Source: Ignavibacteriota bacterium (GTDB taxonomy: Bacteria > Bacteroidota > Ignavibacteria > UBA10030 > CAVZMI01). From it: DNA of 64,000 nt. Below, in pieces: positions 6,495-17,547 of the stretch (position 1 is its first letter; each line of letters opens with the position of its first letter). A model generated the notes under the pieces. The model was given only the letters and a program-made list of their open reading frames with translations. It had not been told where the DNA came from and ran no database searches. Position numbers and translations under genes: made by a program. The stretch covers positions 160,001 through 224,000 of the forward strand of contig CAVZMI010000020.1 in the NCBI GenBank assembly GCA_963776275.1, in the 5' to 3' direction.

Positions 6495-7311
6495 CTATCG
6501 CTCAAAGCCTCCAACCTTGTGAATCCGGCCGAGACGCTGACCAAGGAAACGTTCACCGACCTCAAGAAATTTATGGGGAATATCGCTTACGTGAAACTGG
6601 ATGTTCGGACGTTGTGTGCTCGGATTTTTAAGATCGCGTAAGGTAAGAATTTCTTCAACAATCCCGCCTGTCGCCTCTCCGGAATCTATCAGCGTTATCG
6701 CTCCGCGCAATACTTTTTCAATCGTATCCCGTAGGATCGGATAATGTGTGCATCCCAGAACAAGCGTATCGATGCTTTGTGTCGTCAGGGGGAAGAGATA
6801 TTCTTTTGCGATTAATTCCGTTGCTGCGTGGTGGGTCTGATCCTTCTTCAGCAAGCGGTACAAAAAGCGGACACGCCTGGCTGAAGACTTCTATGGTCGG
6901 ATCAATTTGATAAATAGCGCTTTTATAAATATTACTTGCAATAGTTCCCAGTGTGCCGATCACGCCGACCCGTTTTTTCTTGGTTTCTTTGACAGCGGCA
7001 GCCGCACCGGGAGCAATCACTCCGACGACAGGAATCGAGCCCGCACGTTTTTGAACAACATCAAGCGCCACGGCTGAGACCGTATTGCATGCAACCACAA
7101 TCATTTTCACATCGTTTGAGAGGATAAATTCTGTATCTTGCAGCGCGTACTCGCGCACAACCTGGGCCGATTTCGGGCCATACGGTACACGGGCGGTATC
7201 GCCGAAGTACACGATGTTTTCATTCGGAAACTGCCGCATAAGGGCGCGGACAACTGTCAATCCGCCGATACCCGAATCGAAAACACCGATGGGTTTTTCG
7301 TTCGCTGTCAT
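6495..7311 (-). CDS. murI: Glutamate racemase, split by one frameshift near 6835 (probable sequencing error)
   Basis: FDSGIGGL and ACNT in ORF 6718..7311; LGCTHYP in ORF 6495..6863. Confidence 0.93.
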
Positions 7312-9969
7312 TTTAATTCAACATTTTTAAATGTGAGGATTGTTTTGAGAATAGCCTCCCGGATTTCAGTTTTTCGTCCTTCCGCCACCGGCGCACCGGA
7401 TCTGTCGACAACATAAAATGAATCAACAATACCGTCGCCGCGCGTCGCAATTTTTGCAAAAGTAATATTGAGGTTTTGTTCAGAGATCGTCTGTGTCACC
7501 CGATACAGGAATCCCAGCGCATCGGCTGCAAACACATCGATAATCGTAAAGCGAGGATCATCCTCAAATTCTACATCAAAGCGTATTACAGGACTTAGAT
7601 ATCCCCTGGTGCGACGTTTCCATTTACGCCGGTGATGTTCAAAGAGATGTTCAATATCAATCCGGCCTTCGATAACGGCATTGAGTTCATCATGGATCTT
7701 CTGGCAGACATCTTCTGTAAGATGCTGCTTTGTCATTGCATCGGTGACGCGAAATTTATCGATAATGATAGCGTCGGTCCGCGTAAAAATGTTCGCATCA
7801 AAAATATTTGCATCGTTGGCCGAGAGAACGCCGCAGAACTTCGAGAGGGCAAACGGCGCGTCAGTGGAAATAATCGTGACTTCCGTATATCCTTCACGTG
7901 TGCGAAAAAGAGTAGAGACGGTTTCATTATCACCGATTTTTGATATATGGAAAGCTATTTCTTCTTCATCGAAGGTACCGACGTATTGTGGACTATCGAT
8001 TTTCTGAAAATGTTCCTCTACGATTTCACGAGAATGTATACCGTTGAGTTTTGTCACAACCACCTCGACGGCCTCCCGATACCGATCGAGGTGAAGTGCA
8101 CGAAACTCTTCCTGTTTCAAACCGGCGCCTATTATCTCCTTCGCCTGCAGATATAATTCCTGAAGAAGCACGGCCTTCCAATTTGTCCATGTCGTCGGAT
8201 TTACTGCAGAAAGATCGGCATAGGTAATAAGGTACAGGCGATCGAGCTGGAAGGTGAAGGTAAATATTTCGGCAAATTCAGCTACCGTCTCGACATCGTG
8301 TATATTCCGCCGAAAACTTACCTGCTCCATTAAAAGGTGATTCTTGATAAGGAAAGTAACATCTTCAATATAATCTTCTAATCGCAGCCGTGTAAGAATC
8401 GACACGGCCATCGTTGCACCGATCACTTCGTGGTCATCGATTTGAACAGGTTTTGCGATGTCGTGGAGCAATAGTGTCATGAATAAAATACCTCGCTTTT
8501 TTCGGGCACGATAGAGATCTCCCAAGACACTTTCATCTCCTTCCAGGGCCTCGAACCGTTGAAGTGTGATAAGCGTATGCTCATCGGCTGTGTAATAATG
8601 ATAGCGACTGTGCTGGTAAAACGCGACAAGCGCTTCGAATTCCGAAATGAATCGGCTGAGCACAGTGAGGTCGGCCATTTCATATAACACATTTGCCACA
8701 TGCGAAGCTGATTCGATGATCGAACGAAAGATAAGGAGCGGTTTTTCGGAAAAAACCTCGGTATCCGGAACACGCACGGCGTTTTTATGAATTGCCGTTC
8801 GCAGCCTCTGACTGAGCCTCGGGCACCTCATGGCTCTGCATAAGACTAAAAGCTTCCATGGATGTCTCTAATGAGAATCCGTTCTCAACAGCCGCTGAAG
8901 TAATATCTAGCATGTCGCCACGAATGAGAAACCGGTCATCTATGATTTTCTTTTCGTCCTTTTTAATGCCGGGGGGCAATCGAAGTCGATACTTCTCGCG
9001 GAGCTGCCCGGTGAGTATCTGATTTAACCGCAATAGTGTCTTCGCGCTCAGATAATATTCCTGCATGAATCGTTCGACAGCCTGCCGGCTGCCGGAAGAT
9101 TCGAAGCCGAGCCCGTCGGCAATGACGCTTTGCAGCGAGTAATCAAGCGAGTCATGAAGCGTCTTTCGAAGAAAATGAACTTCGTTCCGTGTACGAAGCA
9201 GAAAGTTGAGCGCTGTAATCGCAGTATCGGACTGTATGAAATCCAATTCACCTTCTCGGGTGAGGAGCTCGAGCATTTCAACACATGCCGAGCGATGTTG
9301 TCCGGGTGTTGTCTCGCAATATCGGACATCCGAAGATCGATAGAGCCAGAGAATTGCATGAACATCGCGGAGTCCGCCTGCGCTTTTCTTAATATTCGGT
9401 TCAAGGAGTTTTGCCGAATTGCCGTATTTTGCGTGACGTGCGGTAAGTTCCTCGAGCACACGGTCGATAAAAAAATTGTCGGCCAGCTGCGCAACGGTTT
9501 CCGAACGGCGCCGGAAAAAGTCCGAGGCGATATCGTGATTTCCGCAGAGAAAGCGCGCTTCGAGAATCGAAGCCCAGTTCTCGACTTCGGTGGTTGAAAA
9601 ATGCATGCATTCGTCAATCGACCGTACACTGTGCCCGACATCCAATCCGCAATCCCAGAATGAGTGAAGAAGCTCCTTTACGGCAGGTTTGAGTTTTTCT
9701 TCATGTTTATTCTCATCGTGAACGAGCATGATATCAACGTCCGATTTCGGGCAGAGCTCTGTTCGTCCATATCCCCCTAACGCAAAGAGCGCAATTCCGG
9801 AGAGCGCATCGTTCACCGAAGCGCCGGCTAACGATATGATGACCTCATCCATCATAACGGCGAGGGCGGTGCATACGGTAAATCCGTCGGCGCCATTACG
9901 ATGCAATTGATATACGGCATCGCGCCGGGATGCAAGAACCTGCCGCTGTTCCTGGATTATTGTTTTCAT
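7308..9969 (-). CDS. glnD: Bifunctional [protein-PII] uridylyltransferase/uridylyl-removing enzyme, split by a frameshift near 8824
   Basis: GGYGR..SDVD nucleotidyltransferase motif and LEPNIKKSAGGLRD in the upstream ORF; HD (LLHDIAK) and two ACT domains in ORF 7308..8831; start taken at MKTII (9969). Confidence 0.92.
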
Positions 9970-10059
9970 AAAGAAAATATATGAAAGCGGCAGACAAGTT
10001 ACAACTTTAATACTTTGAAGATAGCTAAAAAAATAATACGATATTATTGTCCGCACCAC

Positions 10060-10088
10060 TTGACAAGACGACAAAAATGTCGTATATT
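10060..10088 (+). promoter_or_regulatory. sigma70 promoter of the DUF72 gene with a palindromic operator in the spacer
   Basis: TTGACA(10060-65)-N17-TATATT(10083-88); ACGACA-AAAA-TGTCGT at 10068-10083. Confidence 0.75.
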
Positions 10089-10137
10089 CTATTGTAGGCC
10101 ATAGCCACACGAATTGCAGTATTTACCGGAGTCTATT

Positions 10138-11067
10138 ATGGGTTTACCGGCACGCATCAGCATCGGCATGGGGGCATGGGATATCGAGCCGTATAAATAT
10201 CTGTTTTATCCTGCCGCACGCGAGAAGCACTTCCGGCTGCTGGAGTTTTATAGCCGATTTTTCGACAGCGTCGAAGTAAATGCCACATTCTATAATGCGG
10301 CATTTACACCGTTCCACGCCAAGCAATGGCTTGACGATGTGGCCTGTCAGCCCGATTTTGTATTTCTCGTTAAGCTGTATCGCGGTCTGACACACACGTT
10401 CGATGCCACCGCGGCCGACATCCTCGGCATCAATGCATTTCTTGCGCCACTGGAAGAAGCCGGCAAGCTTGGTGGACTTCTTCTGCAATTCCCATTCCGG
10501 TTCACGAACCGGCTGGAACACCGGCGGTATATCGTTTTGCTTAGCCGTATATTTCGTCATCATCGAGTATTTATCGAATTGCGGCATGATTCATGGCACA
10601 ACCGCGCAATGGTGGAGTTTTTCGAAGAACACGGACTTTACCCGGTCAATGTCGATCTTCCGCAGCTACCGCATTTTATGCCGTTGACCGCGATTTCATA
10701 CAAGGGATACGCCTATTTCCGGATGATGGGCCGAAATGCCGCCGCATGGAATCACCCCGAACTGGAGAATCGATATACGTACAGCTACAGCCAGGAAGAA
10801 CTTGACGATCTTCTCCGGAAGATCAGCATAATATTAAAAACGGCACGCCGTGTCTATGTGGTATTTCATAATGATGCGAAAGGACATTCGTTGCTCAACG
10901 GCTTCACACTGCGTCATTTGCTCAATCGACACAACATTGTCGTCCCGGACCGCACCGCGCACACATTTCCGGAACTCACGGGAATCGGCTCTGTCGCCTC
11001 TGCGCCGGTGCCGCTGTTCGATGAAAAAGTTTCGCTTCACTTTCAATCAATCAATTCATCACCCTAA
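10138..11067 (+). CDS. DUF72 (YecE-like TIM-barrel) protein
   Basis: YSRFFDSVEVNATFY, LLQFP, ELRHDSW, YFRMMGRN, Y.YS.EEL motifs; GGAG 6 nt before ATG 10138. Confidence 0.9.
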   Translation: MGLPARISIGMGAWDIEPYKYLFYPAAREKHFRLLEFYSRFFDSVEVNATFYNAAFTPFHAKQWLDDVACQPDFVFLVKLYRGLTHTFDATAADILGINAFLAPLEEAGKLGGLLLQFPFRFTNRLEHRRYIVLLSRIFRHHRVFIELRHDSWHNRAMVEFFEEHGLYPVNVDLPQLPHFMPLTAISYKGYAYFRMMGRNAAAWNHPELENRYTYSYSQEELDDLLRKISIILKTARRVYVVFHNDAKGHSLLNGFTLRHLLNRHNIVVPDRTAHTFPELTGIGSVASAPVPLFDEKVSLHFQSINSSP

Positions 11068-11077
11068 TTCAGGAGAC

Positions 11078-11581
11078 ATGATGACACACTCACTCACAGA
11101 ATTTTTTACCGACTGGAAAAATGAAAGTTCCTCAACATTGAAAATCTTCAACGCCCTGACAGACGCATCGCTTACGCAGAAAGTAACGCCCGACGGGCGC
11201 TCGCTCGGATTCCTGGCATGGCATATTATCCTGACGCTCGGAGAAATGGCCGGACAGTGCGGCCTGACCATCGACGCACCTGCCGAATCGAAGGCTGTAC
11301 CAAATAAGGCATCCGAGCTTACAGCGGCATACGAAAAAGCTTCGGCGTCGCTGGTCAGTAAAGTGCAATCACAATGGACCGACGCGATGTTGAACGACGA
11401 ACTCGACATGTACGGCGAAAAATGGAAACGCGGCGCCGTGCTCGACAGCATTATCCGCCACGAAATTCATCATCGTGCACAAATGACGGTATTAATGCGT
11501 CAGGCGGGAGTGAAAGTCCCGGGCGTGTACGGTCCGGCCCGTGAGGAATGGGCAAAAATGGGCATGAAGCCGATGGCATGA
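11078..11581 (+). CDS. DinB/YfiT superfamily four-helix protein (not Pol IV)
   Basis: RSLGFLAWHII...HEIHHRAQMTVLMRQAGVKVPGVYGP; AGGAG RBS. Confidence 0.9.
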   Translation: MMTHSLTEFFTDWKNESSSTLKIFNALTDASLTQKVTPDGRSLGFLAWHIILTLGEMAGQCGLTIDAPAESKAVPNKASELTAAYEKASASLVSKVQSQWTDAMLNDELDMYGEKWKRGAVLDSIIRHEIHHRAQMTVLMRQAGVKVPGVYGPAREEWAKMGMKPMA

Positions 11582-11627
11582 GAAACATCGCGGAGAGGGC
11601 GAGGTGAAAAGCTTTTTTGCTTCATGA

Positions 11628-11728
11628 GATTTCGGATTTCGGATTGATGATTTCGGAATTGGAGGACAAGGCTACACGGGGACTTGGGTGTGAATACAGT
11701 TCGTTCCCATTCATAATTCACAATTCCG
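11628..11728. repeat. Degenerate heptamer repeats (GATTTCG-like) with inverted arm between convergent genes
   Basis: GATTTCG GATTTCG GATTGAT GATTTCG GAATTGG; CGGAATTG(11654-61) pairs with CAATTCCG(11721-28). Confidence 0.5.
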
Positions 11729-11771
11729 CCTTCATTTTATTCCGGCGGACGTGTCGTAATTCACAACTTAC

Positions 11772-12509
11772 TTATCGCCCTGAAAATTCATTCCCTGCGG
11801 GGGTGATGCACTTGGACGTGTCGTTCTGAGAATTGTTTACAAGTTTGGAGACCGGATAGGCTTTCATGTCACGGGCTGGATAAGGTGTAAGAGATTTCGC
11901 AAGCTCGGTCATGTTTCTGAACCCCCGGTCGAGCCACTGTTCAAAGCGTTCTTCAGGAAGGATGACCGGCATACGGCTGTGGAGTCTGGACATAAGCTCA
12001 TTGGGCGTGGTGGTAATGATTGTGAAGGTAGGAAATTCTTCGCCGGCCGGATTTTTCCAGATCGAGAAGAGACCGGCAAACATGAACGGCCGCTCGTCTT
12101 TCATGCGGATGCAGAAGGGAATTTTTTCCGTAATGTTTTTTTTCTTTCCCTGCTTTTCAACCTGCGTTATGGTTGCTTTCCACTCATAGAAAGCGTCGGC
12201 AGGGATAAGGCAGCGGCTCCCTTTGAAGTAGGGGGAATAGAGTCTGCTTTTTTCAAGTGTTTCTGCTTTTGCATTGAAGGTCGAAAAATTTACTTTGCCG
12301 TCTTTCGACCAGTGCGGAATAAGCCACCACTGCATTTTTTGTACAAGGGGCGTACCGTCACGGACAACCACAACCGGCATGTGCTGCATGGGTGAGACGT
12401 TATAGCGGGGAAGACCATCAAAGACGGTTCCGATATCCCGAATCTTATTGATCATTGCAAATGATGCAATAACTTTCTTACCGTCGATCAAAACATAACG
12501 GCCACACAT
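11772..12509 (-). CDS. yedK: SRAP/HMCES abasic-site-crosslinking protein
   Basis: N-terminal MCGRY (catalytic Cys2), RYNVSP, FYEW, HSRMPVIL, VSKLVNN. Confidence 0.95.
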   Translation of the reverse strand: MCGRYVLIDGKKVIASFAMINKIRDIGTVFDGLPRYNVSPMQHMPVVVVRDGTPLVQKMQWWLIPHWSKDGKVNFSTFNAKAETLEKSRLYSPYFKGSRCLIPADAFYEWKATITQVEKQGKKKNITEKIPFCIRMKDERPFMFAGLFSIWKNPAGEEFPTFTIITTTPNELMSRLHSRMPVILPEERFEQWLDRGFRNMTELAKSLTPYPARDMKAYPVSKLVNNSQNDTSKCITPAGNEFSGR

Positions 12510-12626
12510 ACACGTCTCCTGTGCTCTGTGCAGAATAATGTAATGAAATTCTTATCGAAAACACAATATCTCTTTCGGCAATCTGCCTGTACTAACGTTT
12601 CCGCCAATACCATTGAGGAGCGTGGA

Positions 12627-13457
12627 ATGAAGAAACCTCAAATCCCATCGGACCGGTCGGAAATCGGTCTTGACGACCCGTCCGCCTCTGTCGTACCACG
12701 CGTTGTCCAGCGGGATCGGCAGAACGTCGGGGTTTGTTCTCCAGAGCTTCGCATCACCTACGATGTGTTATCACGACGCTTTACCGCGGCACCGCCGGGA
12801 AAGCTGTATCTACTATACGGCGATGCTGTGGTATTCCGGTTTGCCCTAGCTCTGGCATCACACGCCCTTTCGCATCAAGCCGCCATTGCCGTTGTCGATG
12901 GCTGCAACAAATTTGATGCGCATTCCATTGCCCGATTCGCGCGGGAACACGGATATTCGCCCGACGATTTTCTCAACCACATTTTTATTTCCCGCGGATT
13001 CACCTGTTATCAAATGGAAGCGGTTGTTAACGACCGCTTACTGCCGTTTATTCAACGCATCGGCGGAAACACTGCAATAATTTTCGGACTCCTCGACACG
13101 CTTTACGACGAGCAGGCACCGCTGAACGAGGTACGCAACATTCTCCGGCGTATAGTCATACGGCTTCACGACATGAAGGCGGTAGGAATTTCAGTCCTCC
13201 TCGCCTCGCGGCAATGGAACGTCCCGGACCAGAGAAGAAATGCGCTGTTTACAACACTACAATCGGGCATGGATATCGTCTGCCGCGTTGAAATGAACGA
13301 AGAGATGAAACCAAAGTTATATCTTGAGCAACCGGGAAAGGCGCTTCATCATGGGACGGACAGTACCAACATTCACCAATATCATCGATGCGGAAATCGC
13401 CAGCTGGTCGAAATACCGCCGCGGACTGCGCAAAGAAGACCAGGAGGCGTTCGATAA
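12627..13457 (+). CDS. Inactivated RecA/RadA-fold protein (ImuA-like partner of PolB2)
   Basis: VVDGCNKFD...IFISRGFTCYQM RadA-like segment with no GxxxxGKT; GAGGAG RBS before ATG 12627; directly upstream of the PolB2 genes. Confidence 0.75.
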   Translation: MKKPQIPSDRSEIGLDDPSASVVPRVVQRDRQNVGVCSPELRITYDVLSRRFTAAPPGKLYLLYGDAVVFRFALALASHALSHQAAIAVVDGCNKFDAHSIARFAREHGYSPDDFLNHIFISRGFTCYQMEAVVNDRLLPFIQRIGGNTAIIFGLLDTLYDEQAPLNEVRNILRRIVIRLHDMKAVGISVLLASRQWNVPDQRRNALFTTLQSGMDIVCRVEMNEEMKPKLYLEQPGKALHHGTDSTNIHQYHRCGNRQLVEIPPRTAQRRPGGVR

Positions 13458-13614
13458 CCTCTTCCGTGCGGCACAGATTCATCTTGCGGAAAATTTTTAT
13501 GCCATGCGGACGATCCCGTTCGAAAGCATCGTCATATCGATGCTCGTCGAACAACAGAAACAGATTATACAGCTTCACGAGCAGGTGAACCACCTGAAGC
13601 GCGATACACAATGA
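13351..13614 (+). CDS. Small helical PolB2-associated protein (arCOG07300-like)
   Basis: MGRTVPTF...W..YRRGLRKEDQEAFD...PFESIVISMLVEQ; ATGA overlap with the polymerase gene. Confidence 0.8.
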   Translation: MGRTVPTFTNIIDAEIASWSKYRRGLRKEDQEAFDNLFRAAQIHLAENFYAMRTIPFESIVISMLVEQQKQIIQLHEQVNHLKRDTQ

Positions 13615-15881
13615 TAACGACTGTCAGAGGATGGCTGTTCGATCTCTATCCATCGGCTCAGGGAATGACTCTCTGGATTATCGATGAAGATGGAAACACA
13701 CACCGGTGCCGGGATACATTCACTCCAACATTCTATCTGCACCTCCCGCCGCCTGAGATGGCACGTGCAGAAAGGATGGCAGAAGCGTGTCCGGTTCCCG
13801 TGGCACATTGCCGGACACAGCGGATGGAACTCTATTCCGGCACCATGATAGATGTTGTCGCCTGCACCGTTTACGACGCCATGCGCGCCCGCGAGGCGGT
13901 ATGGTTCTTCGAAAAAGAATTTCCGCATTTTACATTTTTCAACACCGATATTCCGATTGCACAGTTGTATCTCTACCACACCCAACTTTTCCCTCTGGCA
14001 TTCGGCGACTACGGTATTGACGAAACCGGTCGGCTTGTGGATACTACTCTCCACGACACTGTCGGGTCAACGGAGTATCGCCTCCCCCCTCTCTCGATCA
14101 TGGCGCTCAGGAATACAGATTCATTTGTTCCGCTCAAACATCAGCGTTCGATACAACTGGAAATCAGTTACGACAACACTGACTACGTGCTTGAACAGGA
14201 GAATCCCGCGGATCTTCTCGAAGGACTCAACCGCCACCTCGCACGATACGATCCGGATATCCTTCTTACCGAATACGGCGATGCCACGCTGATGCCGATG
14301 CTTTACTCTCTTTCCCGGCATACCCGTGTTCCGCTGCTTCTGAACCGCGACCGTACCGCCGATTACCGGATTACCAAAGGATCAAGTTATTTCCAATATG
14401 GAAAAATCATCCATAAGGACGGCGCATTCGAACTTGCCGGACGATGGCACATCGATACCGAGAATTCTTTCACTGTCGTAGAATCGGATCTCGACGGTCT
14501 TTTCGAGCTCTCGCGCATCACGCAGATTCCGGTGCAGCATCAGTCGCGTGCCAGCATCGGTAACGGACTTTCATCGATGCAATTCTCGTGGGCATACCGT
14601 AATAATATTTTGATCCCGTCGAAAAAACGTGAGCCCGAAGAATTTAAAAGTGCGGCAACGCTGATACTCGCCGACCGTGGCGGACTGACCTTCCAGCCGC
14701 CGATCGGTTACCACGAAGATGTCGGAGAGCTGGACTTTGTCTCGATGTACCCGACAATCATGGTCCGGCATAATGTCTCGCCCGAAACGGTCAACTGCCG
14801 TTGCTGTCCAGATGCGCCGCCCGCGGTGCCGGAACTTGATTACAGAATCTGCAAACGCCGTGAAGGAATTGTCCCAGCAACGCTCCGCCCGGTCGTTGCA
14901 CGCCGGTTGTACTACAAGAAAAAAAAGAAAGAACTCAAGACCCGAAACGATCCTCTCTGGATCCGCTACGATCGGCGCCAGACGGCGCTCAAGTGGATGC
15001 TCGTTACATGTTTCGGTTATCTTGGATATAAAAATGCCCGCTTTGGAAAAATCGAAGCGCATGAATCGGTTAACGCGTTCTCGCGCGATGCTTTGCTGAC
15101 CGCGAAAGAGATAGCCGAACGCAACGGCTTTCATCTACTCCATGCAATTGTCGATTCCATGTGGCTGAAGAAACCGGGGGCAACTGAACAGGACTATGAG
15201 CGGCTCTGCGATGAAATCTCGGCCGCGACATCCATCGATATTTCCCTTGAAGGTATTTACAAGTGGATTCTCTTTCCGGCATCCAGAATGGATTCTCTGC
15301 TGCCGACAGCGAACCGTTACATCGGGTGGTACCAACACGGCGAGTATAAAGTCCGCGGGATCGAGGTTCGTCGGCACGATACACCGAAGTTTATCAAGGA
15401 AATGCAGAAACAGCTCTTCGATATTCTCGCACATGCCGGGAATGTCGATGAAATCAAGCGTTATATTCCAAGCGTTCTCGAGTCGGCACAATCATCGCTT
15501 CAACTTCTTAGTTCGGGAAAGGCTAATCCGCTCGATCTTGTTATTCGAAAAAATATTTCACAGGAGGCCTCGGAATACAGCAACAACAGTGTGAATGCGG
15601 TCGTCGCGCGGATGCTCGAAGATGCAGGCGTTCATCTTGCGGCAGGCGAATCCATTTCCTATATTCTCATCGATGCAACAGGAAAAAAGAAGCCGGAAAA
15701 GGCGAAACCGGTTGCGCTTTATGCATTCGAGGATGGATACGATATTGAAAAATATATCGAATTGTGTCTGAAGGCCGTCGAGACGCTCCTTCTCCCTTTT
15801 GGGTGGAATATGGAAAAACTGGCAGAATATCTCGGCCTGAACAATAAAAACCATCGAGAAAAAGGGGCAATTTGTCCTTGA
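13611..15881 (+). CDS. polB2: Family B DNA polymerase, PolB2-type
   Basis: Motif A DFVSMYPTIM, motif B ALKWMLVTCFGYLGY, motif C HAIVDS (in place of YGDTDS), KVRGIEVRRHD; exonuclease motifs not recognisable. Confidence 0.9.
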   Translation: MITTVRGWLFDLYPSAQGMTLWIIDEDGNTHRCRDTFTPTFYLHLPPPEMARAERMAEACPVPVAHCRTQRMELYSGTMIDVVACTVYDAMRAREAVWFFEKEFPHFTFFNTDIPIAQLYLYHTQLFPLAFGDYGIDETGRLVDTTLHDTVGSTEYRLPPLSIMALRNTDSFVPLKHQRSIQLEISYDNTDYVLEQENPADLLEGLNRHLARYDPDILLTEYGDATLMPMLYSLSRHTRVPLLLNRDRTADYRITKGSSYFQYGKIIHKDGAFELAGRWHIDTENSFTVVESDLDGLFELSRITQIPVQHQSRASIGNGLSSMQFSWAYRNNILIPSKKREPEEFKSAATLILADRGGLTFQPPIGYHEDVGELDFVSMYPTIMVRHNVSPETVNCRCCPDAPPAVPELDYRICKRREGIVPATLRPVVARRLYYKKKKKELKTRNDPLWIRYDRRQTALKWMLVTCFGYLGYKNARFGKIEAHESVNAFSRDALLTAKEIAERNGFHLLHAIVDSMWLKKPGATEQDYERLCDEISAATSIDISLEGIYKWILFPASRMDSLLPTANRYIGWYQHGEYKVRGIEVRRHDTPKFIKEMQKQLFDILAHAGNVDEIKRYIPSVLESAQSSLQLLSSGKANPLDLVIRKNISQEASEYSNNSVNAVVARMLEDAGVHLAAGESISYILIDATGKKKPEKAKPVALYAFEDGYDIEKYIELCLKAVETLLLPFGWNMEKLAEYLGLNNKNHREKGAICP

Positions 15882-16059
15882 TGACCGAAAAAGGGGGGGG
15901 TGACTTTAAAAATTTCTGTACTTGATTTTGAATTAAGAAATGAATAACATATATTGTTTATAGTTGCATCTATTTTCATCTCAATTGCTATCGATTAGTG
16001 TTTAAATAGATACATATTGTTGATATTTTGTTACCATTCATTAATCAAGGAGAACATAT

Positions 16060-17547
16060 ATGAGAAAATTTTTATTACTTGGTATGTTTCTCTGTGTGGT
16101 TGCTGTCATTCCAAACAGCGTTGTAAAAGCACAGGGGATTGATTCTTATCCACGTCTTGGTGCTCAGCTCCTTATTGGAGATCCAGCCACAGAATTTTAT
16201 GAGAGTAATGGACTCAAGATGACATATCAAGCACGCGGTCTCTTACGTTATTCTCTGTCAAAGTATCTTAAGGGTGAGATTGGCGGCGGCTATGTAATGA
16301 TGTCCGGACTCGATTTCAGACATGCTTATTATCGGACAAATATTTATCCGCTCGATTTTCGCATTTTGTTATTCCCGATTCAGAGTAAATCCGTTAGACC
16401 ATTTATCTATGCCGGGGCAGGAGGACTTTATTATCGTGTTGTTAAACTTCCACAATGCGTCAATCCTCCACAACCGATTCCGCTTCTCATCACAGGTCAG
16501 GATGGATTAGCAGCATATGTACCGGTAGGAGTCGGAATTGAATTCGCTCTTTCGCAAGCAGTTTCACTGGAATTGGTATGCGGATATAACCATGTATTCA
16601 ACGACAATCTCAACTACTGTAAATTCCCATGGGATGGCGATTATAATACGGACGCATGGGCAACAGTCGGTCTCGGACTCACCTTTGCACTGGGCAGAGG
16701 AAATGCCGATGATGATAAGGATGGTTTAACGAATGCCGAAGAGGAAAAGCTCGGAACCGATCCGGACAATCCCGATACGGATGGCGACGGCCTAACCGAT
16801 GGCGACGAAGTAAAAATCTATCGCACCAATCCTCTCAAAGCCGACACCGATGGTGATGGACTGAAAGATGGTGATGAAGTAATGAAATATAAGACTGACC
16901 CGCTGAAGATTGATACCGATGGTGACGGATTGAATGACGGTGATGAAGTAATGAAATACAAGACCGATCCGCTGAAGGTTGATACCGATGGCGACGGATT
17001 AAGTGACGGTGATGAAGTAATGAAGTATAAGACGGATCCGTTGAATAAAGATACCGACGGCGATGGACTTACAGATGGTGATGAAGTACTGAAATATAAA
17101 ACCAATCCGTTGAACAAAGATACCGACGGTGGCACTGTGGACGACGGTACTGAAGTGAGACGCGGAACGGATCCTCTCAATCCGGCCGATGATGTAGTGA
17201 AAATGCAGGCTCCGATTATACTTGAAGGAATCGTATTCGCTTCAGGAAAAGCGGATATAGAACCCGCTTCAGCCGCTACACTTGAAAAAGCGCTGAAGAC
17301 CCTGAAGATCTATTCCGATATCGAGGTCGAGATCTCCGGCCATACCGACAAGCTCGGCTCACGTGCATTGAACATGAAACTATCGCAGCGTCGTGCCGAT
17401 GCAGTAAAACAATGGCTTGTAGACAAGGGCATCGATGCAAAACGGATAACAGCGAAAGGATATGGTCCTGACAAACCGATCGACTCAAACAAGACAAAGG
17501 AAGGCCGCCAGAAGAACCGGCGCATTGAATTTGTCAGAATCAAGTAA
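16060..17547 (+). CDS. OmpA-family outer membrane protein with Ca-binding DTDGDG repeats
   Basis: Signal peptide, barrel-like N-terminus, about 7 repeats of 23 aa, OmpA C-domain (GHTD...LSQRRA...GYG...NRRIE). Confidence 0.92.
   Translation: MRKFLLLGMFLCVVAVIPNSVVKAQGIDSYPRLGAQLLIGDPATEFYESNGLKMTYQARGLLRYSLSKYLKGEIGGGYVMMSGLDFRHAYYRTNIYPLDFRILLFPIQSKSVRPFIYAGAGGLYYRVVKLPQCVNPPQPIPLLITGQDGLAAYVPVGVGIEFALSQAVSLELVCGYNHVFNDNLNYCKFPWDGDYNTDAWATVGLGLTFALGRGNADDDKDGLTNAEEEKLGTDPDNPDTDGDGLTDGDEVKIYRTNPLKADTDGDGLKDGDEVMKYKTDPLKIDTDGDGLNDGDEVMKYKTDPLKVDTDGDGLSDGDEVMKYKTDPLNKDTDGDGLTDGDEVLKYKTNPLNKDTDGGTVDDGTEVRRGTDPLNPADDVVKMQAPIILEGIVFASGKADIEPASAATLEKALKTLKIYSDIEVEISGHTDKLGSRALNMKLSQRRADAVKQWLVDKGIDAKRITAKGYGPDKPIDSNKTKEGRQKNRRIEFVRIK
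16708..17193 (+). repeat. Coding tandem repeat, about 69-nt unit (DTDGDGLxDGDEVxKYKTDPLxx)
   Basis: Visible in both DNA and protein. Confidence 0.9.

What the first reader, a model, noticed from the sequence alone, without database searches (positions are those of the whole stretch)
10060..15881. Candidate bacterial abasic-site/mutagenesis island built on an archaeal-type PolB2 instead of ImuB/DnaE2 or UmuDC
Seen: six adjacent genes between glnD and an OmpA gene: DUF72, DinB/YfiT, SRAP (MCGRY), and a coupled trio of RecA-fold protein lacking Walker A, an 87-aa helical protein and a PolB with HAIVDS in motif C. Known: the trio matches the archaeal PolB2 operon (inactive RadA, arCOG07300, PolB2); Sulfolobus Dpo2 mediates damage-induced mutagenesis; SRAP/HMCES crosslinks AP sites in ssDNA; SRAP and DUF72 occur in SOS neighbourhoods. 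Inferred: this is one module in which SRAP shields AP sites, DUF72 processes lesions and a three-subunit B-family mutasome bypasses or extends past them, replacing ImuABC. I know of no experimental study of such a bacterial system.
Basis: partly seen in the sequence, partly recalled or inferred. Interest (0 to 1): 0.88.

Follow-up and report, generated by a model that had tools for sequence, protein, structure and literature searches.

The report
Bacterial PolB2 damage-tolerance gene cluster
This is a bacterial copy of the archaeal-type three-protein PolB2 "mutasome" operon, sitting beside DNA-lesion genes under a repressor-controlled promoter; the type of system is already described from computer analyses, but it has never been tested in a bacterium.

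Summary
Between glnD and an OmpA gene lie DUF72, a DinB-family gene, SRAP (opposite strand), a Walker-A-less RadA homologue (iRadA), an 87-aa helical protein starting MGRT (PPB2), and a B-family polymerase with HAIVDS in motif C and no exonuclease site. The trio is a bacterial PolB2 operon. This kind is in print from computer analyses only: Makarova 2014, and Timinskas 2025, which also reports SRAP, DUF72 and lexA enrichment nearby. Novelty is therefore low.

New here:
- 66 of 68 related loci keep the trio. 10-15 of 52 keep DUF72/SRAP, on at least 6 tree branches.
- A palindrome, ACGACA-N4-TGTCGT, has two strong copies in this 3.7-Mb genome. One lies inside the DUF72 promoter. The other lies before an HTH-S24 LexA-like repressor gene. 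Orthologues of that repressor flank the operon in 25 of 80 loci.
- A model supports PolB2-iRadA binding through an FxxA motif (score 0.81, best control 0.00).
- The genome has Pol IV but no second DnaE, UmuC or canonical LexA.

Function is inferred: a damage-induced extender polymerase. How the trio itself is transcribed remains open.

The parts
10060..10088 (+). Sigma-70-like promoter of DUF72 (TTGACA, 17 nt, TATATT)
   Evidence: It is the best promoter-like site in 9800-16200, with 11 of 12 matches. The sequence was read.
10068..10083 (.). Candidate operator, the palindrome ACGACAAAAATGTCGT, lying between the -35 and -10 elements
   Evidence: It is the only exact copy in the 3.7-Mb genome and scores 30.0 bits on the weight matrix. 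The next best site, 25.9 bits, lies before the HTH-S24 repressor gene on contig C3. The same dyad is exact in 16 of 65 regions upstream of iRadA in relatives, against 0 of 65 control regions.
10138..11067 (+). DUF72 (TIM-barrel family); first gene behind the operator
   Evidence: PF01904, E 4e-44. PDB relatives are 1vpq (E 7.5e-29) and 1vpy/1ztv. It is the only DUF72 gene in the genome.
11078..11581 (+). DinB/YfiT-family protein, 10 nt downstream of DUF72
   Evidence: PF05163, E 3e-28. It is linked to PolB2 only in L006 and L013 among the loci.
11772..12509 (-). SRAP (HMCES/YedK family), divergent from iRadA
   Evidence: PF02586, E 1e-64. HMCES 6oe7 E 6e-27 and YedK about 1e-17. It starts MCGRY. 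It is the only SRAP gene in the genome.
12627..13457 (+). iRadA: RadA/Rad51 ATPase-core homologue without Walker A. Alternative starts are 12528 and 12543.
   Evidence: The profile of 28 homologues hits RadA at E 2.4e-7. In the AlphaFold2 model the core (residues 68-265) has pLDDT above 90. The top Foldseek hits are RadA/Rad51 ATPase domains at about E 5e-10. No GK[ST] occurs in the sequence.
13351..13614 (+). PPB2 (arCOG07300-like), 87 aa, with an N-terminal MGRT arm and three helices
   Evidence: It starts MGRTVPTFTN. That start is nearly unchanged in the loci listed, 67 rows counting the window; one starts with V. The model has mean pLDDT 82 with helices 8-24, 28-48 and 57-86.
13611..15881 (+). 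PolB2: B-family polymerase with motif C HAIVDS and a decayed exonuclease domain. It carries an FxxA motif (F345-A348) followed by D355-R356.
   Evidence: PF00136. Alignment to 5mdn. Invariant columns in alignment A1. The predicted interface with iRadA uses residues 338-355.

Best explanation
The region is a chromosomal DNA-damage-tolerance cluster built around a bacterial PolB2 mutasome.

Shown from sequence:
- iRadA, PPB2 and PolB2 are encoded as a translationally coupled trio with all the sequence hallmarks of the PolB2 operon.
- DUF72, followed by a DinB-family gene, sits behind a strong promoter. The spacer of that promoter holds a perfect 16-bp palindrome.
- The only other strong copy of the palindrome in the genome lies in the promoter of an HTH_3-Peptidase_S24 (LexA/CI-like) repressor gene.

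Inferred mechanism:
- The repressor binds ACGACA-N4-TGTCGT and shuts both promoters. After DNA damage it cleaves itself, as LexA and CI do.
- DUF72 (a relative of UV-damage endonuclease, according to the paper) and the DinB-family protein are then induced.
- PolB2 is held by iRadA through a Rad51-type FxxA contact. It probably carries a PPB2 trimer whose MGRT arm reaches the active site.
- By analogy with Sulfolobus Dpo2, PolB2 extends primer ends that Pol IV has placed opposite lesions.
- SRAP crosslinks abasic sites in single-stranded DNA.
- In this lineage the module fills the role that ImuA-ImuB-DnaE2 or UmuDC fills elsewhere.

It is open whether the trio is read from the DUF72 promoter, running antisense across SRAP, or from an unrecognised promoter of its own.
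For: Identity of the trio:
- Gene order and overlaps.
- Motif C reads I-V-D, and the exonuclease domain is not detectable.
- The MGRT start of PPB2 is the motif Timinskas 2025 calls conserved.
- iRadA matches RadA by profile at E 2.4e-7 and by fold.
- 66 of 68 loci keep both partner genes.

Binding: complex prediction with PolB2 and iRadA residues 73-283 scored 0.81, best of 3 controls 0.00. That mark was reached by 58 of 80 solved complexes and 2 of 110 mismatched pairs. The runs agree in at least 94% of contacts, and the partner's pLDDT is at least 79. The interface is the invariant KKREPEEFKSAATL stretch (FxxA) just before D355-R356. This matches the interaction mode the paper describes.

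Regulation:
- The genome holds one exact palindrome. Weight-matrix scores are 30.0 and 25.9 bits for the two promoters, and the next site scores 18.8 bits and lies inside a gene.
- Both sites lie between the -35 and -10 elements.
- Repressor orthologues at 50-58% identity sit next to the operon in 25 of 80 loci.
- A site of at least 20 bits lies upstream of PolB2 in 50 of 67 loci, against 1 of 70 downstream.
- The site always precedes the first gene of the unit: iRadA, Pol IV or DUF72.
- The repressor keeps the GQSM serine and the VKR lysine.

Module:
- In L012 the repressor gene lies divergent from the site, which is followed on one strand by DUF72, Pol IV, iRadA, PPB2, PolB2 and SRAP.
- In L062, L065 and L071, DUF72 leads the trio directly.
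- SRAP linkage shows 6 changes and DUF72 linkage 8 changes on a 53-row PolB2 tree.

Gene content:
- The genome has one Pol III alpha, one Y-family polymerase that scores as Pol IV (316.7 bits, cut-off 256), and no LexA DNA-binding domain.
- All 30 PolB2-positive genomes of 151 in the class have a single PF07733 match.

Activity precedent: Dpo2, which has IID in motif C, is an active, damage-induced extender polymerase (abstracts).
Against: - In the window no operator-like site lies upstream of iRadA or SRAP. The best score in 10100-13800 is 2.4 bits. No promoter-like site was found before iRadA. Damage control of the polymerase itself is therefore not shown here.
- In the five loci with the same DUF72(+)-SRAP(-)-iRadA(+) layout and this repressor type, the sites are likewise only upstream of DUF72.
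- recA and the Pol IV gene have no site in this genome. This is not a broad SOS regulon.
- SRAP and DUF72 are absent from most related loci: 37 of 52 have neither upstream.
- The weight matrix was built from the same loci whose upstream regions were then counted. Only the own-genome scan and the downstream control are independent of that.
- The loci are relatives, so the counts are not independent events.
- The '2 or more PF07733 matches' seen in 59 of 121 PolB2-negative genomes is an upper bound. Of 5 checked, 2 were one gene split across contig ends.
- The genome is a draft: 96.4% complete, 5.3% contamination.
- No strict clamp-binding motif was found.
- No expression or biochemical data exist for any bacterial member.
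Confidence: 0.65

Rival explanations
1. The trio is a PolB2 mutasome, but DUF72, the DinB-family gene and SRAP are only neighbours. They share a damage-related neighbourhood or regulator without acting in one pathway with the polymerase.
For: Only 15 of 52 loci have DUF72 upstream, 10 have SRAP, and 1 has the DinB-family gene. In the window the operator controls the DUF72 promoter, while SRAP is on the other strand with no site. SRAP and DUF72 genes occur in many genomes that lack PolB2: the control genomes ring for both families.
Against: The linkage recurs on at least 6 branches of the PolB2 tree and in two different layouts, SRAP divergent upstream or co-directional downstream. The single SRAP gene and the single DUF72 gene of this genome both sit here. 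L012 has everything on one strand behind one operator. Timinskas 2025 reports enrichment in archaea as well.
Confidence: 0.25
2. PolB2 here is catalytically dead, and the complex has a structural or regulatory role. This was the older view of PolB2.
For: The first Asp of motif C is Ile and the exonuclease site is gone. Makarova 2014 took such replacements to mean inactivation.
Against: Dpo2, which has IID at the same place, is a robust polymerase and is solely responsible for targeted mutagenesis (abstracts). Motif A Asp375, the second motif C Asp515 and long stretches of the palm and fingers are invariant in 11 homologues at 60-68% identity.
Confidence: 0.07
3. The cluster is a recently acquired mobile or phage-derived island, and the CI-like repressor is a prophage remnant.
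For: The repressor has a phage-CI-type HTH domain. GC content is slightly higher (0.51-0.53) than in the flanks (0.41-0.47). PolB2 is patchy at class level, in 30 of 151 genomes.
Against: There is no tRNA in 1-30000, and no flanking direct or inverted repeats worth noting. No integrase was seen among the neighbouring ORFs scanned. The layout from glnD to OmpA is the same in L006. PolB2 is present in whole families (f2 4/4, f3 7/7, f14 10/11, f16 5/5), which fits vertical inheritance.
Confidence: 0.03

Closest known systems
Bacterial PolB2 operons (iRadA-PPB2-PolB2), as described computationally by Makarova 2014 (Leptospirillum ferriphilum LFML04_0990-0993) and Timinskas, Timinskas and Venclovas 2025
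   Same: The gene order is iRadA-PPB2-PolB2, the only order the paper reports in bacteria. PPB2 starts with MGRT. The DxD motif has lost its first Asp. The exonuclease domain is decayed. The PolB2-iRadA contact lies before the D(K/R) motif. lexA-type, SRAP and DUF72 genes are neighbours.
   Different: The repressor is encoded elsewhere in this genome and has an HTH_3/CI-type domain, not the LexA winged helix. The operator sits on DUF72, not on iRadA. No canonical beta-clamp motif was seen in this clade. I could not see the paper's supplements, so I cannot say whether this lineage is in its data set.
Sulfolobus islandicus Dpo2 (archaeal PolB2)
   Same: It is a B-family polymerase with I-x-D in motif C and no proofreading. 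It is encoded with an inactive RadA and an arCOG07300 protein. It is damage-induced, works as an extender, and is the source of targeted mutagenesis (abstracts).
   Different: It is archaeal and controlled by Orc1-2, not by an S24 repressor. I did not align the two sequences directly. Activity of the bacterial protein is untested.
E. coli Pol V mutasome (UmuD'2C-RecA-ATP)
   Same: A damage-induced translesion polymerase bound to a RecA-family subunit through a filament-type contact. A small subunit inserts an N-terminal arm near the active site (paper Discussion).
   Different: The catalytic subunit here is B-family, not Y-family. The RecA-family partner is a dedicated, ATPase-dead paralogue. 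The small subunit is unrelated to UmuD.
ImuA-ImuB-DnaE2 mutagenesis cassette
   Same: A three-gene, SOS-controlled mutasome with a RecA-like inactive subunit (ImuA; recalled). The two appear mutually exclusive in this class: 0 of 30 PolB2-positive genomes have a second PF07733 match.
   Different: The polymerase families are unrelated (C-family DnaE2 and Y-family ImuB). None of its genes is present in this genome.
Non-canonical LexA of the Bacteroidetes (Sanchez-Osuna et al. 2021)
   Same: A CI-like HTH domain joined to an S24 peptidase. The repressor regulates itself through a fixed-spacer palindrome, and it controls translesion polymerases and, in some species, the SRAP gene (passages).
   Different: [quoted passage not shown] Here the motif is ACGACA-N4-TGTCGT. 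The predicted regulon in this genome has only two promoters and does not include recA. Homology to those regulators was not tested. The paper does not mention Ignavibacteria (0 occurrences).

Membership tests
PolB2 mutasome operon | Three adjacent co-directional genes in the order iRadA, PPB2, PolB2 | tested here: met
   Coordinates are 12627-13457, 13351-13614 and 13611-15881, all on the + strand and overlapping. The same order holds in 66 of 68 loci.
PolB2 mutasome operon | B-family polymerase whose motif C DxD has lost the first Asp | tested here: met
   HAIVDS aligns to YGDTDS of 5mdn. I513 and D515 are invariant in 11 homologues.
PolB2 mutasome operon | Proofreading exonuclease active site missing | tested here: met
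   There is no DNA_pol_B_exo1 hit. Residues 1-283 show no significant similarity to solved PolBs. A weak alignment places MALRN opposite FDIEV (i-Evalue 18, so the position is approximate).
PolB2 mutasome operon | PPB2: a three-helix protein of about 90 aa with the conserved N-terminal MGRT arm | tested here: met
   The protein starts MGRTVPTFTN. M1, G2, R3 and T4 are invariant in 29 sequences. The model has three helices after an arm of 7 residues.
PolB2 mutasome operon | iRadA: RadA/Rad51 ATPase core without the N-terminal domain and without Walker A | tested here: met
   Profile E 2.4e-7 to RadA. Foldseek top hits are RadA/Rad51 ATPase domains. The N-terminal 64 residues are predicted disordered. 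YGDAVVFRF stands where the P-loop would be.
PolB2 mutasome operon | PolB2 binds iRadA through a Rad51-oligomerisation-like motif that precedes the D(K/R) motif | tested here: met
   This is a model only. Score 0.81, best control 0.00. The mark was reached by 58 of 80 solved complexes and 2 of 110 mismatched pairs. The runs agree in at least 94% of contacts and the partner's pLDDT is at least 79. The interface is residues 338-355, which include F345-K-S-A348 and D355.
PolB2 mutasome operon | PPB2 trimer and a heteropentameric holoenzyme | not tested
PolB2 mutasome operon | Clamp-binding motif in the iRadA or PolB2 C-terminus (present in a fraction of members) | tested here: inconclusive
   No strict QLxL[FLIVM] occurs in the tails of 65 loci or the window. 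Weaker motifs were not modelled.
PolB2 mutasome operon | Damage-inducible expression and translesion extender activity | not testable with these tools
   No RNA run holds the region. The only evidence is indirect: the operator on the DUF72 promoter.
SRAP (HMCES/YedK) | N-terminal Cys2 with the conserved Glu and His of the active site | tested here: met
   The protein starts MCGRY. FYEW and HSRMP align to HMCES. PF02586, E 1e-64.
DUF72 | Full-length match to PF01904 and to the solved DUF72 TIM barrels | tested here: met
   151.6 bits against a cut-off of 25.3. 1vpq E 7.5e-29. Nuclease activity was not tested, and the link to UV-damage endonuclease comes from the paper.
ImuA-ImuB-DnaE2 or UmuDC mutasomes | A second DnaE (DnaE2), an ImuB or UmuC Y-family protein, or a UmuD in the genome | tested here: not met
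   There is one PF07733 match. The one IMS match scores as Pol IV, above that model's cut-off, and scores 107 bits against a cut-off of 431 for UmuC. The one S24 protein carries an HTH domain. The genome is 96.4% complete.
Canonical LexA SOS regulon | LexA with the PF01726 winged-helix domain, controlling recA and repair genes | tested here: not met
   PF01726 has 0 matches. No operator-like site lies near recA at C23:189748.
Non-canonical (CI-like HTH plus S24) SOS repressors | HTH and S24 domains with the catalytic Ser and Lys, self-regulation through a fixed-spacer palindrome, and control of a translesion polymerase locus | tested here: met
   HTH_3 plus Peptidase_S24, with GQSM and VKR. 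A 25.9-bit site lies in its own promoter and a 30.0-bit site in the DUF72 promoter. The gene is adjacent to PolB2 operons in 25 of 80 loci. Binding and cleavage were not tested. Orthology to the published Bacteroidetes regulators was not tested.

The most novel reading that the evidence does not exclude
In this bacterial lineage the PolB2 cluster is a self-contained, two-promoter mini-SOS circuit. A phage-CI-like S24 repressor runs it through an operator that I did not find in print (ACGACA-N4-TGTCGT). In the window's layout, induction fires one long transcript from the DUF72 promoter. That transcript runs antisense through the constitutively expressed SRAP gene into iRadA-PPB2-PolB2. The cell would thereby switch from error-free shielding of abasic sites to mutagenic extension.
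Probability: 0.15. Interest if true: 0.65.

Novelty: new member of a known kind. Interest (0 to 1): 0.4.

Why it matters
PolB2 is the only known multi-subunit B-family translesion polymerase of prokaryotes. Every experiment so far has been done in Sulfolobus. The bacterial branch is widespread: at least 4972 proteins match at E 1e-20 or better, 163 of the species genomes scanned encode a relative, and whole families of this class carry it. No bacterial member has been studied at the bench.

This report does not change what the system is thought to be. It adds three handles that can be tested:
- a defined operator and its likely repressor;
- a predicted FxxA contact between the polymerase and its RadA-like subunit;
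- natural layouts that place Pol IV, DUF72 and SRAP in one unit with the polymerase.

It also adds an apparent either/or pattern with a second DnaE. That pattern bears on how bacteria without UmuDC or ImuABC generate damage-induced mutations.

Tried and rejected
- Expression: no RNA holder is listed for window 10000-16000.
- Naming the NCBIfam model NF004416 as 'PolB2': the window protein scores 407 bits, below the cut-off of 516. None of the 14 control genomes passes the cut-off. The model therefore says nothing about subgroup.
- PPB2 fold: Foldseek against PDB gave no match at E 0.001 or better. The sigma-factor likeness reported in the paper was not reproduced, and I did not pursue it.
- Clamp-binding motif: no strict QLxL[FLIVM] was found.
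- Dual coding of the iRadA/PPB2 overlap: synonymous third-position diversity in the overlap is 0.446 against 0.514 downstream (ratio 0.87). Loci without the overlap give a ratio of 1.00. The effect is weak. The apparent conservation of the iRadA tail is largely forced by the conserved PPB2 frame, and the tail is predicted disordered.
- Own promoter for iRadA: none was found by the consensus scan. No terminator-like site lies between the DinB-family gene and SRAP, but the scan is crude.
- Mobile island: there is no tRNA and no bounding repeats.
- Recurrent 268-aa ORF upstream of iRadA in L007-L009: this is a membrane protein with no Pfam family. It is not linked elsewhere, and its homologue in this genome lies far away.
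- Second DnaE as a marker of ImuABC: the count of 59 of 121 is inflated by genes split across contigs. Of 5 genomes checked, 2 were such splits, and only 1 of the 3 true second copies lies beside a Y-family gene.
- Supplements of PMC11791011 (enrichment table, operon list) could not be seen. They may already list this lineage, or numbers that overlap mine.
- String searches for the operator in the held library found only two unrelated papers, on Cop and GraSR.

Full report
**What is in the sequence.** ORF listing and Pfam scans confirm six genes between glnD and an OmpA/TSP3 gene.
- DUF72: 10138-11067 +, PF01904, E 4e-44.
- A DinB-family protein: 11078-11581 +, PF05163, E 3e-28.
- SRAP: 11772-12509 -, PF02586, E 1e-64.
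- A protein with no Pfam hit: ORF 12528-13457 +.
- An 87-aa protein with no hit: 13351-13614 +.
- A B-family polymerase: 13611-15881 +, PF00136, E 2e-31.

SRAP starts MCGRY and aligns to HMCES (E 6e-27) and YedK, keeping FYEW and HSRMP. DUF72 matches the solved DUF72 barrels 1vpq and 1vpy. The polymerase ATG overlaps the stop of the small gene. The unnamed ORF overlaps the small gene by 106 nt in another frame.

**The trio is a PolB2 operon.**
- Aligned to Pyrobaculum PolB (5mdn), the polymerase keeps motif A (LDFVSMYPT, D375). It has HAIVDS where the reference has GDTDS.
- Only residues 283-737 resemble solved PolBs, and no exonuclease-domain family is detected.
- A profile of 28 homologues of the unnamed protein hits RadA at E 2.4e-7, and every hit with E at or below 0.021 is RadA, Rad51 or DMC1.
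- Its AlphaFold2 model has a confident core (residues 68-265, pLDDT above 90) flanked by disordered ends. The best PDB matches are RadA/Rad51 ATPase domains.
- Where the P-loop would be, it reads YGDAVVFRF.
- The small protein starts MGRTVPTFTN and is modelled as a short arm plus three helices.

These are the features that Makarova et al. 2014 (passages) and Timinskas et al. 2025 (abstract, sections 3.1-3.3 part 1 and the Discussion) give for PolB2, iRadA and PPB2. The conserved MGRT arm and the bacterial gene order iRadA-PPB2-PolB2 are among them.

**It is already in print, from computer analyses only.**
- Makarova 2014 states that the same three families are linked in several bacteria, sometimes with lexA.
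- Timinskas 2025 infers a single transfer from archaea to bacteria. It models 40 archaeal and bacterial pentamers and reports lexA, SRAP and DUF72 as enriched neighbours.
- Experimental work concerns Sulfolobus Dpo2. It is damage-induced, solely responsible for targeted mutagenesis, lacks proofreading, and is an efficient extender (abstracts).
- My searches found no bacterial experiment in the held library. I could not see the supplements of the 2025 paper.

**Relatives.**
- At least 4972 proteins match the polymerase at E 1e-20 or better. The best-named ones come from Ignavibacteria/Bacteroidota metagenome genomes.
- A scan of species genomes found 163 that encode a relative. I examined the best 80 loci.
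- Of 68 loci with at least 1.5 kb upstream, 66 have both iRadA and PPB2 in place. The two exceptions are L010 and L060.
- Of 52 loci with at least 4.5 kb upstream (leaving out L006, which is 98% identical to the window):
  - 15 have DUF72 upstream;
  - 10 have SRAP upstream, and all 10 also have DUF72;
  - 1 more has SRAP downstream;
  - 1 has the DinB-family gene.
- On a FastTree of 53 PolB2 proteins, SRAP linkage (12 rows) needs at least 6 changes and DUF72 linkage (16 rows) needs at least 8. I dropped loci with short flanks, PolB2 hits under 700 residues, or an internal stop such as L013.
- The linkage is therefore a recurrent minority state, not one inherited accident. The rows are relatives, however, and the tree is a quick one.
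- A Pol IV gene lies directly upstream of iRadA in 5 loci.
- In L012 one strand carries DUF72, Pol IV, iRadA, PPB2, PolB2 and SRAP in that order.

**A repressor and its operator.**
- The genome has no LexA winged-helix domain. It has one HTH_3 plus Peptidase_S24 protein on another contig that keeps GQSM and VKR.
- Orthologues of this protein at 50-58% identity lie beside the PolB2 operon in 25 of 80 loci. Seven more loci have a distant paralogue.
- In a Pfam scan of the two ORFs upstream of iRadA in 52 loci (103 ORFs), S24 (17) and DUF72 (16) are the commonest families. The ORF calls were crude, and SRAP is undercounted.
- A dyad search of the 410-nt stretches around the iRadA start (350 nt upstream to 60 nt inside) found ACGACA-N4-TGTCGT exact in 16 of 65, against 0 of 65 coding controls.
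- In the window's genome there is one exact copy. It lies in the spacer of the best promoter of the region (TTGACA, 17 nt, TATATT at 10060-10088), in front of DUF72.
- A weight matrix built from 72 sites of the other loci scores that copy at 30.0 bits. A site in the promoter spacer of the repressor gene scores 25.9 bits. The next site scores 18.8 bits and lies inside a gene.
- Across loci, a site of at least 20 bits lies within 4.5 kb upstream of PolB2 in 50 of 67, and downstream in 1 of 70. The upstream count is partly circular, because the matrix came from those loci.
- The site always precedes the first gene of the unit, whether iRadA, Pol IV or DUF72.
- The published Bacteroidetes non-canonical LexA proteins use other motifs, and that paper does not mention Ignavibacteria. 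String searches for this palindrome found nothing relevant.

**The open point.**
- In the window, and in the five loci with the same DUF72(+)-SRAP(-)-iRadA(+) layout and this repressor type, operators lie only before DUF72.
- No promoter-like site precedes iRadA. No terminator-like site separates the DinB-family gene from SRAP.
- Either the trio is read through from the DUF72 promoter, antisense to SRAP, or it has a promoter the scan cannot see.
- recA and the Pol IV gene carry no site here. The predicted regulon is two promoters.

**Binding.** A model of PolB2 with iRadA residues 73-283 scored 0.81, with the best of three controls at 0.00.
- That mark was reached by 58 of 80 solved complexes and 2 of 110 mismatched pairs.
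- The runs agree in at least 94% of contacts, and the partner's pLDDT is at least 79.
- The polymerase side of the interface is residues 338-355, the invariant KKREPEEFKSAATLILAD. It contains an FxxA motif (F345, A348) followed by D355-R356.
- This is the Rad51-oligomerisation-like contact before the D(K/R) motif that the 2025 paper describes. The model supports binding but does not show it.
- PPB2 was not included because of the size limit.

**Instead of ImuABC or UmuDC.**
- The genome is 96.4% complete with 5.3% contamination. It has one Pol III alpha and one Y-family polymerase that passes the Pol IV cut-off.
- In 151 genomes of the class, 30 have PolB2: 13 of 17 others in the same order, and whole families elsewhere. 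All 30 show a single PF07733 match.
- By my count from the table, 59 of the 121 genomes without PolB2 show two or more matches.
- That figure is an upper bound. Of five checked, two were one gene split across contigs, three were true second copies, and one of those lay beside a Y-family gene.

**Verdict.** This is a well-formed bacterial member of the PolB2 mutasome kind. Here it is joined to DUF72, a DinB-family gene and SRAP. At least its first two genes are wired to a CI-like S24 repressor through a palindrome that I did not find in print. The functional scheme remains inference.

Noticed in passing
window 7308-10110 (-): glnD is split into two overlapping ORFs. Relative to L006, where it is one 886-aa ORF, the window has one extra base near 8820. 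This is either a real frameshift or an assembly error.
   Followed up: partly
own genome C37, L004:216-2562: The genome holds a second B-family polymerase with a recognisable exonuclease domain (PF03104 plus PF00136). It is only about 25% identical to PolB2 and is split into two overlapping ORFs of 437 and 382 aa. It lies about 10 kb from dnaE.
   Followed up: partly
window 13351-13457: The iRadA ORF runs 106 nt into the PPB2 gene in another reading frame. Overlaps of 103 or 106 nt occur in 27 of 66 loci, and shorter ones in about 14. The iRadA tail is predicted disordered, and synonymous constraint in the overlap is only slightly raised (ratio 0.87 against 1.00).
   Followed up: partly
L012, L042, L078, L081, L085: A Pol IV gene (46-50% identical to this genome's Pol IV) lies directly upstream of iRadA, with the palindrome in front of it. 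This is a natural inserter-plus-extender operon.
   Followed up: partly
L019, L034, L040, L045, L050, L067, L080, L083: This subgroup of loci has a different S24 paralogue (29-35% identity) upstream and no ACGACA-N4-TGTCGT site. It presumably uses another operator.
   Followed up: no
window 12510-12626: The SRAP-iRadA spacer holds a stretch (AATAATGTAATGAAATTC) that recurs as GAAAAATATGAAATT in L015, L022, L023 and L025. It may be part of the SRAP promoter or an upstream start of iRadA.
   Followed up: no
window 16060-17547 (+): The downstream gene encodes an outer-membrane beta-barrel with five thrombospondin-type-3 repeats and an OmpA domain. It follows PolB2 in L006 and L013 as well.
   Followed up: no
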